64,000 nt of DNA from an uncultured Acidimicrobiia bacterium (GTDB lineage: Bacteria > Actinomycetota > Acidimicrobiia > Acidimicrobiales > AC-14), in assembly GCA_963801205.1 (NCBI GenBank), contig CAWDDV010000012.1:293-64292 (forward strand), read 5' to 3'. This document shows positions 33,660 to 58,695 of the stretch, piece by piece (position 1 is the first letter of the stretch; each line of letters opens with the position of its first letter). Below the pieces are notes generated by a model, which saw only the letters and a list, made by a program, of their open reading frames with translations, did not search any database and was not told the origin of the DNA. A program made the position numbers and the translations under genes.

Positions 33660-35668
33660 TCAGATGACCCGGTCGTTCCCCCCGTCGACCGGGACCTGGG
33701 CGCCGGTGGTACGGGCGAAGGCGGGGCCGCACATGGCCACCACCAGGCGGGCCACGTCGGCGCTGGTGACCTCCGCCCCGAGGACGTTGCCCGTGCGGTA
33801 CTCCTCGGGCGTCATCCCGTAGCGGGCGGCCCGCTCGGCCACCACCTCGTCCGACCACAGCCCGGTGTCGAACACCGCGTTGGGGTGGACGACGTTGACC
33901 CGGATGCCGTCCGGTCCCCACTCGAGCGCCGCCACCCGGGCCAGCTGGGTGAGGGCGGCCTTGGACGCGGAGTAGGCGGCGGCTCCGGGGCCGGGGGCGG
34001 GGACGTTCTTGGACCCGACCACCACCACTCGCCCGCCCCGGGGTGATCGGGCGAGCAACGGGTGGGCCAGGCGGAGGAGGGCGGCGTTGGCGTCGAGGTT
34101 GACGGCCATGGTGTGGCGCCAGGAGGTCGGGTCGAGGTCGGCCACGGCCGCCCCGGGCGGGAAGACGCCCGCGTTGAGGACGAGGACGTCGAGCCCCCCG
34201 AAGCGGGCGACGCACGTCTCCACGGCGGCGTCGAGGGCGGCCTCGTCGGTGACGTCGGCCGCGATGCCGAGCCACGCCGGGTCCCCGTCGTTCTCGGTAG
34301 CGGGGAGTGCGGAAGGCGCACTACCTGCTACCGAGAACGCGGTGTCGACGCCGACCACCGCCGCCCCCTCGGCATGGAAGGCGTCGGCGGTGGCCCGGCC
34401 GATCCCTCTGGCGGCACCGGTCACGAGCGCGATCTCGCCGGCCAGGGGGGCGGGGGCGGGCCGGCGGCGGAGCTTGGCCTGCTCGAGGTCCCAGTACTCG
34501 ACGTCGAACAGGTCGGCGGTGGTCACCGGCCGGTAGCCGCCGAGGGCGGTGGCGTCGGCGATGACCTTCATGGTGTGGCGGTAGACGTCCTCCACGATGG
34601 CCGCGTCCCGGGGCGTGCGGCCGGCGCAACACAGGCCGAGCTCGGGGTCGAGCACCACCCGGGGGGCGGGGTCGAGGGGCAGGAGCGGGCGGGGGGCCCG
34701 GGGGCTGTGCTCGGTGAAGTACCGGCGGTAGGCGTCCACGAAGGCGTCGACGTCGCGGCCCACGAGGGGCACCCGCTTGGTGCGGATGACGTGGTCGGGC
34801 GTGGCCGGTCCGCGTTGGGAGATGTCGGCCATGTCGGCCCGTCCGATGAAGGCCATGGCCTGCCCGTCGGTGTGGGACGACATCACGAACGGGGCCCGGC
34901 CGCGTCGGAGATGCGGCGGCGCAGGTCGGCCCGGGCCAGTCTGACGCCGGCGGCCGGTGGGGGCGCGGGCGGCGCGATGCGGTGGCGGTCGACGAACTCC
35001 TCGGCCCGGCTGACGAGGTCGATCATGGTCTCGTACGACTCCCTCGCCGACTCGCCCCAGGTGAAGATGCCGTGGTTCATGAGGACCACCCCGACGGTGT
35101 CCGGCCGCAGGGCCGTGGGCAGGAGGTGGGAGCACTCCCGGGCCAGAAGGAAGCCGGGCATCACGTAGGGGATGACGACCACCCGGTCGCCGTAGACCTC
35201 GTCGAGGACGCCGGCTGCGTTCTCGGAGTTGGTGAGGGTGACGACGGCGTCGGCGTGGGTGTGGTCGACGAAGCGGTACGGGAGGATGGCGTGGAGGATC
35301 GCCTCCACCGACGGCGCCGGCCCGCCCGCGGTGAGGGACGCCACCAGGAGCTGCTCGGCCATGTCGGTGTCGGAGAGGGCGTCGAGCTCGGCCAGCCGGG
35401 CCACGTCGTCGAGGCGGAGGCAGGCGAAGCCGGGCTTGTCGATGTCGGCCAGATCGGCGCCGCTGCCCTTCACCAAGAGGACGTCGACCTCCTCCCCGAA
35501 GACGGTCGTGCGCCGGGACTTCACCGACGTGTTCCCCCCGCCGTGGAGGACCAGGTCGGGGTCGCGGCCGAGCAGGCGGGACGTGTACACCCGCAGGCCG
35601 AGGTCGCCCTTGGCTGCCCACCGCCCGGCCTCGGCGTCGTCCCACATGCTCTTGACCACTGGTGGCAA
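33660..35668 (-). pseudogene. Bifunctional class II aldolase/adducin-domain plus short-chain dehydrogenase (rhamnulose-1-phosphate aldolase/alcohol dehydrogenase-like); one frameshift near 34890
   Basis: The N-terminal aldolase domain is in ORF 34883..35668. The C-terminal SDR (TGAARGIGRA, YSASKAAL) is in ORF 33660..35864. Confidence 0.8.
34289..34339. repeat. Palindromic repeat (CGTTCTCGGTAGC ... GCTACCGAGAACG), copy A, inside the SDR coding region
   Basis: 13-bp perfect arms, 51 bp in total (17 codons). Same family as 56582-56699 and 57704-57751. Confidence 0.85.
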
Positions 35669-55303: not shown

Positions 55304-56553
55304 GCGCTCTACGGGCCCCCGGCCGACGCTCACCAGCCGCACCCGGGCGTTGGCGGAGGCGCCCGACCTGCTGGCCGCCCTCGGCGATCCCGACGGCTTC
55401 GCCTGGCTGCACGACGGCGCCGGCCTGGTCACGTCCGGCGTGGCCGCCCGCATCCCGGTGCGCCGGGGGCCGGGCCGGTTGGAAGCGGCGGCGGACGAGG
55501 TGAGCGCGCTGCTGGCGGCCATCGAGTCCGACGACACCGTCCGCCTCCCGGGGTCGGGACCGTTGGCCGTCGGGGCCCCCGGCTTCTCCGACGAGGGCGA
55601 GGGCGAGCTTCATCGTCCCCGCCGTCGTCATCGGCCTCACCCGTTCCGGCCAAGCGTGGATGACCGAGACCGGTCCCGGGCCGGGGCTGGCGGCGCCCGC
55701 GCCCATGGCCGTTCCGCCGCCGTCGCCGGGCCCGTCGCGGTTCACGGTCGACGGCCACGGGTTGCGGCCCCGGTGGGGCGAGATGGTGGAGGAGGCCCTG
55801 GCCCGGATCGCGTCGGGCGAGCTGTCGAAGGTCGTTCTGGCCCGGGACGTCACGGTGGAGGCCGACCGCCCGTTCGACGTGGCCACCGTGTTGACGCGGT
55901 TGCGGGGCGGTCACCCCACGTGCTTCACCTTTGCCGCCGGTGGATTGGTGGGGGCGACGCCCGAGCTGCTGGTCCGCCGGCGGGACGCCCTGGTCGTGTC
56001 CCGGCCGATGGCTGGCACCGCGCCCCGGGGCGACACCCTTGACGACGACCGGCGGATGGTGGCCCGCATGAAGTCGTCCACCAAGGAGGGCCGGGAGCAC
56101 CGGGTGGTGGTGGATGCGGTGCGAGCCGCGTTGGGGCCGGTGTGCGAGGAAGTGTCGGCGAGCGCCCAGCCCGAAGTCGCCCGCCTGGCCACCGTCGCCC
56201 ACCTGGCCACCACCGTCGCCGGCCGGCTGAAGGCGCCGTGGCCGTCGGCGCTGGCGTTGGCCGGTCTGCTCCACCCCACGCCGGCGGTGGCCGGCTCACC
56301 CCGGTCGGCGGCCTTGGCCGCGATCGCCGAGCTGGAGGATTTCGACCGGGGCGGTTACACGGGACCGGTGGGATGGGTCGACAGCAGGGGCGACGGCGAC
56401 TGGGCGGTGGCCCTGCGGTGCGCCAACATCCACGGCGCCCGGGCCCGCCTGTTCGCGGGGGCGGGAATCGTGGCCGGGTCGTCTCCCGGCGCGGAGTGGG
56501 CCGAGACCCAGGCCAAGCTGGAGCCCATGATGCGCGCCCTGGTGCAACCGTGA
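55300..56553 (+). pseudogene. menF: Isochorismate synthase; frameshifts at the C5 run 55316-55320 and near 55610
   Basis: ATGA start overlaps the menG stop. Chorismate-binding motifs KVVLARD, GATPELLV, SRPMAGT, EHRVVVD, LHPTPAVAG, YTGPVGW, GAGIVAGSSP. Confidence 0.85.
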
Positions 56554-56581
56554 GCCGGTCCGAGGTGAGGTTGCTTTGCCT

Positions 56582-56699
56582 TTCTCGGTAGCTGAGAGTG
56601 CGATTTCCGCAACGTCCCATACCGAGAACTCGGGGCTTCCTGGGGTTTGCCGTTCTCGGTAGCTGAGAGTGCGATTTCCGCCCCGTCCCATACCGAGAA
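56582..56699. repeat. Two tandem copies (B: 56582-56628, C: 56653-56699, 71-bp period) of the TTCTCGGTAGC...TACCGAGAA palindromic repeat
   Basis: TTCTCGGTAGCTGAGAGTGCGATTTCCGC(A/C)(A/C)CGTCCCATACCGAGAA appears twice, between the menF stop and the DUF559 gene stop. Confidence 0.85.
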
Positions 56700-56730
56700 T
56701 CCTCGGGTGCCGGCGTCGGCTTCGAACATC

Positions 56731-57657
56731 TCAGGCGGCGCGGGCCGTCGCCACTGCTCGTAGCTCCGCGGCGGCGCCTGCCCGATCGTCCACCAGGTCC
56801 TGGTAGACCCAGCGCATCGTCGACCATCCGGCCATCAACGCCTCGCGGTCCCGGCGGCGGTCGCGGCTCATCGCCTCCAGCCGGGCATGCCACCGCCGGC
56901 CGTCGGCCTCCAGGATCAGCCGGCTGGCGGGCACCGCCGCGTCGACACACCCGACGATCGGCTCCCGGTGCCACGGCAGGGGGTGTTGGCGCACCGCTTC
57001 GACGCCGGCGAGACGGATGACTGCGTGGAGCTCGCGCTCGAGGAACGACGCCTCCGGAGGCTCCCCGCCCAGGGTCTCGAGCACCCGTACCAGGCGCGTC
57101 ACTCCCGGCTTGCCCTGCCGGCGAACGTCCCTCAGGACCCGGTCTATCTGGGAGAACGTGGCCTGTCGCTCGACGACGGCGCCCTCGATCGCCCGGCACA
57201 GCCGGAAATCAGTGACGACGGCGGCCAGGTCGATGACGGTGCGGGCCGGGGTCGTGGTCGGGAACCCGTGCACGGTCTCGAGGTGCCACGGGGCCAGGTC
57301 GTCGATGCGGTGCACCGTCATCGTCGTGGGCGGCACGTAGCCCCGCTCGTGGGAGACCGTGACAACGATGAGGTCGCGGCCTATCCCATCCAGGCCGTGG
57401 AGCTCGGCCGCCGACTCGTGGGTGAGGGTGGCGCCCGGGCCGAGGGCGAGAAGGGCAAGATGCCGGCGACGATCGAGGGATTCCGCGGTGCCGGCGAGGA
57501 CCCACGGTCCTCCGAGTGGCCCCACCCAGCGCCCGGCGGCGACCCGCCGGCGGGCCAGCGAGCGGTCGCCCCCCGCGGAGGTCACGTCGGCGATCGAGAA
57601 CGCTCCCGCCTGCCTGGCCGCCACCTGTGCCACTCGCCGGTCCACGTCGCTCCTCAC
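56731..57657 (-). CDS. DUF559 / Vsr-like endonuclease-domain protein with an AbiEi-like N-terminal wHTH; probable GTG start at 57657 (the ORF is open to 57735)
   Basis: N-terminal VAQVAARQAGAFSIADVTSAGGDRSLARRRVAAGRW. C-terminal ..CVDAAVPASRLILEADGRRWHA..RDRRRDREALMAGWSTMRW, typical of DUF559. Intact. Confidence 0.75.
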   Translation of the reverse strand: MRSDVDRRVAQVAARQAGAFSIADVTSAGGDRSLARRRVAAGRWVGPLGGPWVLAGTAESLDRRRHLALLALGPGATLTHESAAELHGLDGIGRDLIVVTVSHERGYVPPTTMTVHRIDDLAPWHLETVHGFPTTTPARTVIDLAAVVTDFRLCRAIEGAVVERQATFSQIDRVLRDVRRQGKPGVTRLVRVLETLGGEPPEASFLERELHAVIRLAGVEAVRQHPLPWHREPIVGCVDAAVPASRLILEADGRRWHARLEAMSRDRRRDREALMAGWSTMRWVYQDLVDDRAGAAAELRAVATARAA

Positions 57658-57703
57658 AACACGTAAAGTGCATGAAAATGAATGAAACGTCAAGACCCTG
57701 CCG

Positions 57704-57751
57704 GTACTCGGTAGCCAGGCGGGCGGTTTTCGCACTCTCCGCTACCGAGAA
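57704..57751. repeat. Inverted-orientation copy (D) of the TTCTCGGTAGC palindromic repeat
   Basis: The reverse complement reads TTCTCGGTAGCGGAGAGTGCGAAAACCGCCCGCCTGGCTACCGAGTAC. It sits upstream of the DUF559 gene next to an AT-rich promoter-like stretch. Confidence 0.8.
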
Positions 57752-57778
57752 CTTGGGGCGCAGGCCAAGCTGGAGCGC

Positions 57779-58042
57779 ATGACGCGCACCGAGGTCGAGG
57801 CCCGGTTCCGGGAGGAGGGCCTGTCGCCCACCTCGTGGGGCAATGGGCCGGGCGACACCTACGGGTGGCACTCGCACACCTACCACAAGGTCCTCTACTG
57901 CGTGTCGGGGAGCATCGTCTTCCACACCCGCGCCGGCGACGTCGAGCTGCACGCCGGCGAGCGCCTCGACCTCCCCCCGGGGACGGAGCACGCGGCCACC
58001 GTCGGCCCGTCCGGGTGCCAGTGCATGGAGGCATCACGATGA
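57779..58042 (+). CDS. Small cupin domain protein
   Basis: GDTYGWHSHTYHKVLYCVSGSIVFH..LDLPPGTEHAA. ATGA overlap with the next gene. Confidence 0.7.
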   Translation: MTRTEVEARFREEGLSPTSWGNGPGDTYGWHSHTYHKVLYCVSGSIVFHTRAGDVELHAGERLDLPPGTEHAATVGPSGCQCMEASR

Positions 58043-58695
58043 AGGTCGTCCCCGAGGACCTGGAGGCCTACGCCGTCACCCATTCGAGCCCGGAGGCGCC
58101 CTGGCTGGTGGCGCTGGCGGCCGAGACCCGGGAGGTGTCGGAGCAGCACGGGATGATGGTGGGCGTCCTCGAAGGGCGGTTCCTGGAGTTCCTGGTCTTC
58201 ATGACCGGCGCCCGCCGGGTGCTCGAGATCGGGACCTTCACCGGCTACTCGGCCCTGTCGATGGCGGCCGCCCTGCCGCCTGACGGGCGGATCGTCACGT
58301 GCGACATCGATCCGGTCACCAACGAAGTGGCCCGCCGGCACGCGTCGTCGAGCCCCCATGGGGACCGGATCGAGTTCCGCCTGGGGCCGGCGTTGGAGAC
58401 GCTGGCCAGCCTGGACGGACCGTTCGACCTGGCGTTCATCGACGCCGACAAGGAGTCGTACCTCGCCTACTACGAGGCGGTGCTCCCCAAGCTGGCCGAT
58501 CGGGGCGTGATCGTGGTCGACAACGTGTTGTGGAGTGGGCGGGTGCTCGACCCGGCCGACGAGTCGGTCGACACCGTCGCCATCCGGGCCTTCAACGACG
58601 CGGTGGCCGCCGATCCGCGGGTGGTGTGCGTGACGCTCACCGTCCGCGACGGGGTCACCCTGCTTCGTCGGGCTCCGGGGGCTGCTCCCAGCTGA
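58039..58695 (+). CDS. Class I SAM-dependent O-methyltransferase (caffeoyl-CoA OMT-like)
   Basis: VLEIGTFTGYSALSMA, DLAFIDADKESY, VVDNVLWSGRV. Confidence 0.85.
   Translation: MKVVPEDLEAYAVTHSSPEAPWLVALAAETREVSEQHGMMVGVLEGRFLEFLVFMTGARRVLEIGTFTGYSALSMAAALPPDGRIVTCDIDPVTNEVARRHASSSPHGDRIEFRLGPALETLASLDGPFDLAFIDADKESYLAYYEAVLPKLADRGVIVVDNVLWSGRVLDPADESVDTVAIRAFNDAVAADPRVVCVTLTVRDGVTLLRRAPGAAPS

What the first reader, a model, noticed from the sequence alone, without database searches (positions are those of the whole stretch)
56509..57790. 1.2-kb DUF559 cassette inserted at the 3' end of menF, bracketed by a 30-bp imperfect direct repeat and by inverted copies of a palindromic repeat
CAGGCCAAGCTGGAGCCCATGATGCGCGCC (56509-56538, the last codons of menF) recurs as CAGGCCAAGCTGGAGCGCATGACGCGCACC at 57761-57790. 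Identity is 27/30, and the first 16 nt are identical. The second copy ends in the first four codons of the downstream cupin gene, and both copies are in-frame with their gene. The 1222 bp between them contain only four things. These are the last four menF codons and stop, two tandem copies of a ~47-bp hairpin repeat (56582-56699), a DUF559/AbiEi-like gene (56731-57657), and an inverted third copy of the repeat (57704-57751) next to an AT-rich promoter-like stretch (TTGACG..ACTTTA). The layout (direct repeat, hairpins, gene, inverted hairpin, direct repeat) looks like a small mobile or site-specifically integrated cassette. It appears to regenerate the C-terminus of its target gene. DUF559 genes are known to be scattered in actinobacterial genomes, but I am not aware of a defined mobility mechanism for them.
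Basis: partly seen in the sequence, partly recalled or inferred. Interest (0 to 1): 0.6.

Follow-up and report, generated by a model that had tools for sequence, protein, structure and literature searches.

The report
Nuclease gene bracketed by its palindromes
A 1.2-kb insert between two metabolic genes carries a DNA-binding nuclease gene flanked by copies of a short palindrome that is scattered through this genome only, which suggests protein and palindrome are a matched pair like REP repeats and their RAYT enzyme, but with a different enzyme.

Summary
The 30-mer recurs at 27/30, and no shuffle reached that. Three roughly 48-nt hairpins bracket an AbiEi-like/DUF559 nuclease gene.

Eight related genomes show the empty site. 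There the menF stop overlaps the cupin start (GTGA).

The insert sits in the first codons of the old cupin gene, with CCGAGGT at both junctions. menF keeps its native C-terminus. The second 30-mer instead gives the displaced cupin a new ribosome-binding site, ATG and first four codons.

The hairpins belong to a 46-copy dispersed family. It was not found in any of 24 relatives searched, and those also lack this gene.

A second paralog in the same genome is bracketed by a second dispersed family. In 55 of 74 homologous loci across Acidimicrobiales the two flanks match, against 6 of 216 in the control. RAYT-type transposases were not found in 40 of 41 genomes.

Two genomes that carry the cassette at this same site are not sisters and share no converted flanks. 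That points to site-specific insertion or precise excision.

My reading is a REP/RAYT-like repeat-and-enzyme partnership with a different enzyme. Binding, cleavage and mobilisation are inferred, not shown.

This scan has reached the same reading on other genomes. I found no paper describing it.

The parts
55323..56553 (+). menF (isochorismate synthase). The C-terminus is native. The frame is broken near 55603-55611.
   Evidence: Pfam Chorismate_bind 7.5e-76. tblastn of the L079 menF splits into two frames. The C-terminal peptide is identical to that of empty-site relatives.
56509..56538 (+). Left copy of the 30-mer: the original last codons of menF.
   Evidence: The same sequence is present once in 8 relatives.
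56550..56566 (+). Remnant of the ancestral cupin start. Its GTG overlaps the menF TGA. It ends in the left CCGAGGT junction copy (56560-56566).
   Evidence: Comparison with the empty sites L039-L047, where the cupin starts at this GTG.
56581..56629 (+). fam1 hairpin, copy 1 (inner stem degenerate).
56652..56699 (+). fam1 hairpin, copy 2, in tandem with copy 1.
56731..57657 (-). Gene for a 308-aa protein. Residues 1 to about 200 form an AbiEi-like DNA-binding module. Residues from about 200 to 308 form a Vsr/DUF559-type nuclease.
   Evidence: Pfam. PADLOC AbiEi 1e-18. AF2 model pLDDT 91.9. Foldseek hits 6Y8Q, 1ZEL, 3R3P and 3HRL. E207, D239, E250, D252, R254, D266 and R269 are invariant in 62 homologs.
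57658..57703 (-). AT-rich upstream region of the nuclease gene. TTGACG is conserved in L079. Assumed promoter.
   Evidence: Sequence. No consensus promoter scored.
57704..57752 (-). fam1 hairpin, copy 3, inverted relative to copies 1 and 2.
   Evidence: (I2, 88% complementary).
57761..57790 (+). Right copy of the 30-mer. It supplies GGAG (57772-57775), the ATG (57779) and the first four codons of the displaced cupin gene.
   Evidence: A decayed homolog sits at the same place in L079 and L080.
57789..57795 (+). Right CCGAGGT junction copy, where the native cupin sequence resumes.
57779..58042 (+). Cupin gene (87 aa) with a replaced start.
   Evidence: Pfam Cupin_2. Orthologs in 16 of 24 same-family genomes searched.
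34289..34339 (+). Solo fam1 hairpin of the same family, lying in frame inside an SDR gene.

Best explanation
The cassette is one instance of a palindrome-plus-nuclease partnership.

The protein. It has an AbiEi-type DNA-binding module, whose solved relatives bind inverted repeats, fused to a Vsr/DUF559-type nuclease.

The flanking repeats. The gene is flanked by copies of a roughly 48-nt palindrome with invariant 11-bp outer arms (TTCTCGGTAGC / GCTACCGAGAA). The same palindrome occurs about 46 times elsewhere in this genome, and in none of the relatives searched that lack the gene.

Inferred mechanism. The protein recognises the arms of its own palindrome family and cuts at or near them. This spreads solo palindromes, much as RAYT enzymes are thought to spread REP/REPIN repeats.

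The insertion. The whole palindrome-gene-palindrome unit lies in the first codons of the cupin gene at CCGAGGT, which is present at both junctions. At its right end the unit carries a 30-nt menF-like piece that now supplies the cupin's ribosome-binding site and start codon. The unit was either inserted site-specifically more than once or has been excised precisely in several lineages.

Shown: the insertion polymorphism, the repeat census, gene and repeat co-occurrence, the predicted fold, and motif conservation.

Inferred: binding, cleavage and mobilisation.
For: (1) Empty sites. In G001-G005, G007, G016 and G023 the menF stop overlaps the cupin GTG and there is no insert.

(2) fam1 census. 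46 copies in G000. BLAST matches: 36 in G000 and 0 in 24 relatives, including all 7 congeners. None of these has a homolog of this protein above 41% identity.

(3) A second pair in the same genome. The paralog at G000:C6:320508-321317 (29% identity) is flanked 1+2 by fam3, a separate family of 36 copies. fam3 occurs only in G000, G001, G002 and G005, exactly where the syntenic ortholog is fam3-flanked. In G003 and G007 the ortholog has a diverged family (fam3') immediately upstream, and that family is dispersed in those genomes.

(4) Close metagenome homologs at four or more different loci are all bracketed by hairpins whose arms drift as the protein diverges. Within those 2-9 kb loci, hairpin copies lie only next to the gene.

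(5) The cognate hairpins are dispersed in other genomes. Counting distinct places among the matches gives about 22 in G034, about 25 in G029 and 4 in G009.

(6) Survey of named species genomes. In 55 of 74 loci the left flank matches the right flank, most matches being strong hairpins. The mismatched-locus control gave 6 of 216. The genome-wide control in G000 gave 11 of 1705 genes.

(7) In the tree of 46 paralogs, flanked genes and their hairpin families follow protein clades.

(8) No Y1/RAYT transposase was found in G000 or in 39 of its 40 relatives, i.e. 40 of 41 genomes. No other element in G000 uses fam1 arms as its ends.

(9) Fold and motif.

(10) Carriers are not sisters. In the menF tree L079 groups with the empty G003/G001/G007 (100/98) and the window with the empty G002 (89/95). 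No shared derived sites lie near the junction. The right 30-mer nevertheless shares two derived bases in the window and L079.
Against: - There is no biochemical evidence for binding or cleavage.
- The three gene-flanking fam1 copies have degenerate inner stems.
- Several paralog clades are never flanked.
- G004 keeps the fam3-clade gene without any fam3 or fam3' repeat. The gene is therefore not sufficient for a repeat family.
- fam2, with 154 copies, has no flanked partner in the assembled 66% of G000.
- No target-site signature for solo hairpins could be read, because congeners are too diverged in intergenic DNA.
- dS of the nuclease gene between the window and L079 (0.30) is only modestly below that of the flanks (0.36-0.49). 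Vertical descent with repeated precise loss is not excluded.
- No known transposase consists of a PD-(D/E)xK nuclease alone (my own knowledge).
Confidence: 0.6

Rival explanations
1. The hairpins are operators or insulators of an autoregulated AbiEi-like regulator-nuclease, for example a defence or repair protein. The dispersed copies are its regulon, or are spread by some other unknown mechanism. Gene and repeats co-occur only because they arrived together.
For: The AbiEi fold and AbiEi profile hits. Known AbiEi proteins bind inverted repeats in their own promoters (my own knowledge). One hairpin abuts the assumed promoter in the window and in L079.
Against: - Hairpins lie on both sides of the gene, including beyond its 3' end.
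- There are 36-154 copies per family. One lies in frame inside a coding sequence, and fam2 forms tandem arrays.
- No AbiEii toxin partner is adjacent.
- The invariant nuclease motif argues for catalysis.
Confidence: 0.2
2. A free-standing homing-endonuclease-type selfish gene that targets the menF/cupin junction. The hairpins are secondary colonists and the direct repeat is a scar of break repair.
For: The nuclease domain superposes on the I-Bth0305I homing endonuclease (3R3P, TM 0.80 on the target). The site is the same in non-sister lineages, with clean empty alleles.
Against: - There is no co-conversion tract. The flanks of L079 are of the G003/G007 type up to about 30 nt from the junction.
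- It does not explain why 55 of 74 homologs at many different loci are bracketed by matched palindromes.
- It does not explain why the palindrome families exist only where the gene does.
Confidence: 0.12
3. Coincidence. An ordinary accessory gene landed here by illegitimate recombination, REP-like terminators accumulated around it by chance, and the 30-mer is a slippage duplication.
For: Two other G000 genes are flanked by fam1 copies: a Zn-dependent dehydrogenase and a small lipoprotein-like ORF. That number is roughly what chance predicts for 46 copies.
Against: Shuffles never reach 27/30. Enrichment is 74% against 2.8% and 0.6% in the controls. Gene and repeats co-occur across congeners. 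The cassette sits at the same site in three lineages.
Confidence: 0.05

Closest known systems
REP/REPIN repeats with their RAYT gene (REPtrons; Nunvar 2010, Bertels and Rainey 2011, PMC3337134; Di Nocera 2013, PMC3733652)
   Same: A single-copy gene is flanked by copies of a short palindromic repeat that is dispersed tens of times in the same genome. Several cognate pairs coexist in one genome. Gene and repeat family co-occur across species. Some partner genes are vertically inherited at a fixed locus (the fam3 locus).
   Different: The enzyme is not an HUH/Y1 transposase. PF01797 was not found in 40 of 41 genomes. It is an AbiEi-like DNA-binding module fused to a Vsr/DUF559 nuclease. The repeats are longer (about 48 nt) and nearly perfect palindromes, with GTAG inside the stem rather than as an unpaired tag. 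The host is Acidimicrobiales, not Proteobacteria. This particular gene copy is insertion-polymorphic between species.
Vsr-like homing endonucleases (I-Bth0305I, PDB 3R3P) and DUF559 proteins (NGO0050, PDB 3HRL)
   Same: The fold of the C-terminal domain of about 100 aa and its conserved acidic/His motif. Presence/absence polymorphism at one exact site.
   Different: There is no intron or intein. The N-terminal domain differs. No co-converted flanks were seen. The partnership with palindromes has not been described for these proteins.
AbiEi antitoxin-repressors (6Y8Q; Rv2827c, 1ZEL) of type IV AbiE systems
   Same: The fold of the N-terminal part of about 200 aa. AbiEi proteins bind inverted repeats (my own knowledge).
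   Different: There is no AbiEii nucleotidyltransferase gene next to it, and the protein is fused to a nuclease. The repeats lie on both sides of the gene and throughout the genome.
IS elements with derived MITEs, and IS elements that target REPs
   Same: A gene-bearing unit plus many short gene-less palindromic copies. There is possibly a short duplicated target (CCGAGGT).
   Different: No recognised transposase family is present. The gene-bearing unit is single-copy. The gene is flanked by whole palindromes, not half-sites. The empty sites in relatives hold no pre-existing hairpin.

Membership tests
DUF559 / Vsr-like PD-(D/E)xK nuclease superfamily | Pfam PF04480 score above the curated cut-off | tested here: not met
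   19.9 bits against a cut-off of 20.6. MTES_1575 scored 25.2 against 38.2. Most homologs carry precomputed PF04480 or PF18741 hits.
DUF559 / Vsr-like PD-(D/E)xK nuclease superfamily | Profile and fold match to solved members | tested here: met
   The profile of 62 homologs hits 3HRL at E=1.4e-8. Foldseek gives 3R3P a TM of 0.80 and 3HRL a TM of 0.72 on the target. Model pLDDT is 91.9.
DUF559 / Vsr-like PD-(D/E)xK nuclease superfamily | Conserved acidic/His catalytic motif | tested here: met
   E207, D239, E250, D252 and R254 are invariant and H257 is at least 90% conserved in 62 sequences.
AbiE type IV toxin-antitoxin system | AbiEi-type DNA-binding protein | tested here: met
   PADLOC AbiEi 1.2e-18 over residues 5-177. 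Foldseek 6Y8Q, E=5.7e-6.
AbiE type IV toxin-antitoxin system | Adjacent AbiEii nucleotidyltransferase toxin gene | tested here: not met
   The neighbours are menF and a cupin gene. The same holds in L079 and L080.
REPtron (RAYT + REP) | Gene flanked by copies of a palindromic repeat that is dispersed in the same genome | tested here: met
REPtron (RAYT + REP) | Co-occurrence of gene and repeat family across genomes | tested here: met
   fam1 gave 36 matches in G000 and none in 24 relatives. For the fam3 and fam3' pattern.
REPtron (RAYT + REP) | The gene encodes an HUH/Y1 (IS200-like) transposase | tested here: not met
   The protein has no such domain. PF01797 was not found in 40 of 41 genomes, while the control genomes gave hits.
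REPtron (RAYT + REP) | The enzyme cleaves or mobilises its repeats | not testable with these tools
   Needs biochemistry or genetics.
Homing endonuclease gene | Occupied and empty alleles of one exact site in related genomes | tested here: met
Homing endonuclease gene | Co-conversion of flanking markers with the gene | tested here: not met
   The flanks follow the species tree up to the junction, and there are no shared derived sites near it.
Insertion sequence / MITE | Recognised transposase and several copies of the autonomous unit | tested here: not met
   The unit is single-copy and the paralogs are about 30% identical. No transposase domain was found.
Insertion sequence / MITE | Target-site duplication | tested here: inconclusive
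   CCGAGGT lies at both junctions in the window. It could not be checked at solo hairpins.

The most novel reading that the evidence does not exclude
AbiEi-DUF559 nucleases are a second, non-HUH class of enzymes that create and spread REP-like palindromes in Acidimicrobiales and perhaps in Actinomycetota at large. In addition, the palindrome-gene-palindrome unit is itself a mobile element that inserts at a specific short target and excises precisely, carrying an outward-facing start signal for the gene it displaces.
Probability: 0.4. Interest if true: 0.9.

Novelty: new variant of a known kind. Interest (0 to 1): 0.78.

Why it matters
Many REP-like repeat families have no known mobilising enzyme. 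Di Nocera et al. 2013 (PMC3733652) state this for the CGTC-type REPs.

DUF559 proteins are common and have no assigned function.

A matched nuclease-palindrome pair gives both problems a testable answer:
- a candidate enzyme for RAYT-less palindromic repeats;
- a candidate substrate for a large family of uncharacterised nucleases;
- a sequence-programmable DNA-binding nuclease whose target can be read from its own flanks.

This locus adds a natural experiment. Congeneric species with and without the gene differ by the whole repeat family, and clean occupied and empty alleles of one site are available.

Tried and rejected
- Target-site signature of solo fam1 hairpins. I compared two sites with five congeners. 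The intergenic site is too diverged to align. The in-frame SDR site falls in a loop of variable length. No duplication could be read from either.
- Read-level search for excision or circle junctions.
- menF-cupin fusion idea. It was prompted by long open frames and rejected. Relatives have a TGA stop with an overlapping GTG start in another frame.
- Campbell-type integration at the 16-nt identical core. Rejected, because the left copy continues with native chromosomal sequence. The geometry fits a crossover or target at CCGAGGT instead.
- Transfer by homologous recombination with long arms. No donor-type sites lie next to the junction.
- Rfam and the consensus promoter and terminator scans found nothing.
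- NCBIfam found nothing.
- A search for another element using fam1 arms as its ends found only chance or near-chance matches.
- Literature searches linking DUF559, Vsr or AbiEi to REP-like repeats found nothing.
Full report
**1. The observation**

The sequence is as described.
- The 30-mer at 56509-56538 recurs at 57761-57790 with 27/30 identity (family D2).
- In 200 Markov shuffles of 56300-58100 the best 30-nt match never exceeded 25.
- Two tandem hairpins lie at 56581-56629 and 56652-56699. A third, inverted copy lies at 57704-57752.
- Together they bracket a 308-aa ORF on the minus strand, 56731-57657.
- Its Pfam hits are all just below threshold: MTES_1575, DUF559, AbiEi_4 and AbiEi_1.
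- The neighbours are menF (Chorismate_bind) and an 87-aa cupin, followed by an O-methyltransferase.

**2. It is an insertion, and where exactly**

Cupin orthologs were located in 16 of the 24 same-family genomes searched.
- In eight of these genomes the menF-type 30-mer was found about 20-60 nt upstream of the cupin. They are six congeners (G001-G005, G007) plus G016 and G023.
- In all eight, menF ends with the same peptide and a TGA that overlaps the GTG start of the cupin (GTGA). Nothing lies between the two genes.
- In the window the first 17 nt of that ancestral cupin start survive at 56550-56566. The cassette follows.
- After the third hairpin comes the second 30-mer, joined to the cupin at GAGGTCGAGG.
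- CCGAGGT is therefore present at both junctions (56560-56566 and 57789-57795).
- The menF C-terminus is the native one.
- The second 30-mer provides GGAG (57772-57775), an ATG (57779) and four codons (MTRT). These replace the lost M-S/T-R-S/A start of the cupin.
- The right copy looks like the 58-nt stretch 56509-56566 with its middle 23 nt removed. The two 12-mers that flank the removed stretch are similar to each other.

**3. The same cassette elsewhere**

A protein search found homologs at 88% (P0002) and 74% (P0003) identity.
- Both lie between menF (or the contig end) and the cupin/O-methyltransferase pair.
- L079, which carries P0002, has one fam1-type hairpin on each side. It also has a decayed right repeat that shares two derived bases with the window's copy.
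- L080, which carries P0003, has no hairpin on the promoter side and a weaker right repeat.
- Homologs at 64-52% identity lie at other loci: next to an acyl-CoA dehydrogenase, downstream of whiB and a hydrolase, and at two further loci.

**4. The carriers are not sisters**

- In the menF tree L079 groups with the empty-site genomes G003, G001 and G007 (100/98). The window groups with the empty G002 (89/95).
- The cupin/O-methyltransferase tree does not unite the carriers either.
- Sliding identities and a search for shared derived sites show no tract of common ancestry next to the junction.
- Within the last ~30 nt on either side, L079 matches its own subclade, not the window.
- dS between the window and L079 is 0.30 for the nuclease gene. 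For the flanking genes it is 0.49 (menF), 0.41 (cupin) and 0.36 (O-methyltransferase).
- Two readings remain. Related cassettes entered the same short target independently, or one old insertion was excised precisely in several lineages. Recombination between the two CCGAGGT copies would restore the empty site exactly.
- Both readings imply defined element ends. Transfer by homologous recombination with long arms is not supported.

**5. The hairpins are a dispersed family tied to the gene**

- An iterative nhmmer search finds 46 fam1 copies in the 3.28-Mb, 66%-complete genome.
- In 34 copies of standard length the 11-bp outer arms are essentially invariant. An inner TGCG/CGCA stem and a 5-nt loop are conserved, and the positions between them vary.
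- The same query gives 36 matches in G000 and none in 24 relatives, including all seven congeners. None of these has a homolog of this protein above 41% identity.
- No other element in G000 uses fam1 arms as its ends.
- Y1/RAYT transposases were not found in G000 or in 39 of its 40 relatives, while the control genomes gave hits.

**6. The pattern is general**

*Close homologs.*
- In every locus holding a close homolog, the gene is bracketed by matched palindromes.
- The arms drift with protein divergence: TTCTCGGTAGC, then TTCTCGGTACG, then TTCTCGGGAAC, then forms such as CGAACTCGAGTGTGAG.
- Within those 2-9 kb loci, copies lie only next to the gene.

*A second paralog in G000.*
- The gene at C6:320508-321317 is flanked by one plus two inverted copies of fam3, a separate 36-copy family.

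*The fam3 locus across the genus.*
- The locus is syntenic across the genus.
- fam3 repeats occur only in G000, G001, G002 and G005, where the gene is fam3-flanked.
- In G003 and G007 the ortholog has arrays of a diverged family (fam3') immediately upstream, on its 5' side. fam3' shares the loop motif with fam3, and it is dispersed in those genomes.
- G004 keeps the gene but has neither family.

*fam2.*
- fam2 has 154 copies in G000.
- fam2 flanks DUF559 paralogs in G001-G007 and G019.
- No fam2-flanked partner is in the assembled part of G000.

*Other genomes.*
- The cognate hairpins of G034, G029 and G009 are dispersed there. Counting distinct places among the matches gives about 22, about 25 and 4.

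*Survey of named species genomes.*
- The genomes were mostly Microthrixaceae and other Acidimicrobiales.
- In 55 of 74 loci the left flank matched the right flank at E<1e-3.
- By my count from that listing, about 41 matches are 30 nt or longer and 35 fold at -20 kcal/mol or better.
- The control, pairing flanks from different loci, gave 6 of 216.

*Controls and tree.*
- In G000, 11 of 1705 crude genes have matched flanks, and one of them is the C6 paralog.
- In a tree of 46 paralogs, flanked genes and their hairpin families follow clades. Three clades are never flanked.

**7. The protein**

- Sixty-two homologs share invariant E207, D239, E250, D252, R254, D266 and R269. H257 is nearly invariant.
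- The AlphaFold model is confident: pLDDT 91.9.
- Residues 1 to about 200 superpose on the AbiEi antitoxin (6Y8Q) and Rv2827c (1ZEL).
- The last ~100 residues superpose on the I-Bth0305I homing endonuclease (3R3P) and the DUF559 protein NGO0050 (3HRL).
- PADLOC AbiEi models match residues 5-177 at 1e-18. NCBIfam has no model for the protein.
- No AbiEii gene is adjacent.

**8. Reading**

- The best-supported explanation is a REP/RAYT-like partnership in which a DNA-binding nuclease of a different class is paired with its own palindrome family.
- The finding's cassette is the gene-bearing member of the fam1 pair.
- It is caught as an insertion polymorphism that rebuilt the start of the gene it displaced.
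- Binding, cleavage and mobilisation are inferred.
- The rivals are weighed in their own sections: operator or regulon, homing endonuclease, and coincidence.

**9. Prior knowledge**

- Seven full-text searches found no paper linking DUF559, Vsr-like or AbiEi proteins with dispersed palindromes.
- Di Nocera et al. 2013 state that CGTC-type REPs lack a dedicated transposase, and the text search found no mention of Actinobacteria in that paper.
- After reaching this reading I looked up this scan's notes. At least eight earlier follow-ups on other genomes reached the same reading.
- What this locus adds:
  - the within-genus co-occurrence test;
  - the syntenic fam3/fam3' switch;
  - the empty site with junction anatomy;
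  - the non-sister carriers.

**10. Limits**

- G000 is 66% complete.
- The relatives are one genome per species.
- The metagenome contigs L079-L081 are of unknown exact taxonomy.
- The trees rest on 0.9-1.4 kb.

Noticed in passing
window 55323-55611: menF appears frameshifted. Residues 11-107 of the L079 ortholog match one frame (55323-55610) and residues 105-421 match another (55603-56550). This is either a pseudogene or an assembly error in this metagenome-assembled genome.
   Followed up: partly
window 34289-34339: A solo fam1 hairpin lies in frame inside an SDR-type gene. In five congeners the same spot is a loop of variable length, so the hairpin sits in a tolerant region.
   Followed up: partly
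G000:C15:214703-215455 (outside the window): A small lipoprotein-like ORF (signal peptide and LLAGC lipobox, no Pfam hit) is flanked by two 53-nt fam1 copies. The copies are 100% identical and in direct orientation, which suggests a very recent event.
   Followed up: partly
G000:C9:161451-162568 (L004 1500-2617): A zinc-dependent dehydrogenase gene is flanked on both sides by fam1 hairpins.
   Followed up: no
G000:C13:38030-38634 and other sites: fam2 hairpins (154 copies) often form head-to-tail arrays with a period of about 61 nt and up to 11 units.
   Followed up: no
L107 340-700 (G003:C6) and L205 (G007:C97): Upstream of the syntenic fam3-clade gene, G003 and G007 carry arrays of a diverged palindrome (fam3'). 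In G003 the array has an 83-nt period. G000, G001, G002 and G005 carry fam3 at that position. The two families share a GAGGGGG loop motif.
   Followed up: yes
G000:C4:103333-104601, C9:303477-305099, C15:135018-136541, C16:282319-283938: Four genes have long direct repeats (83-194 nt, 86-99% identity) in their two flanks. These are unrelated to the hairpin families examined.
   Followed up: no
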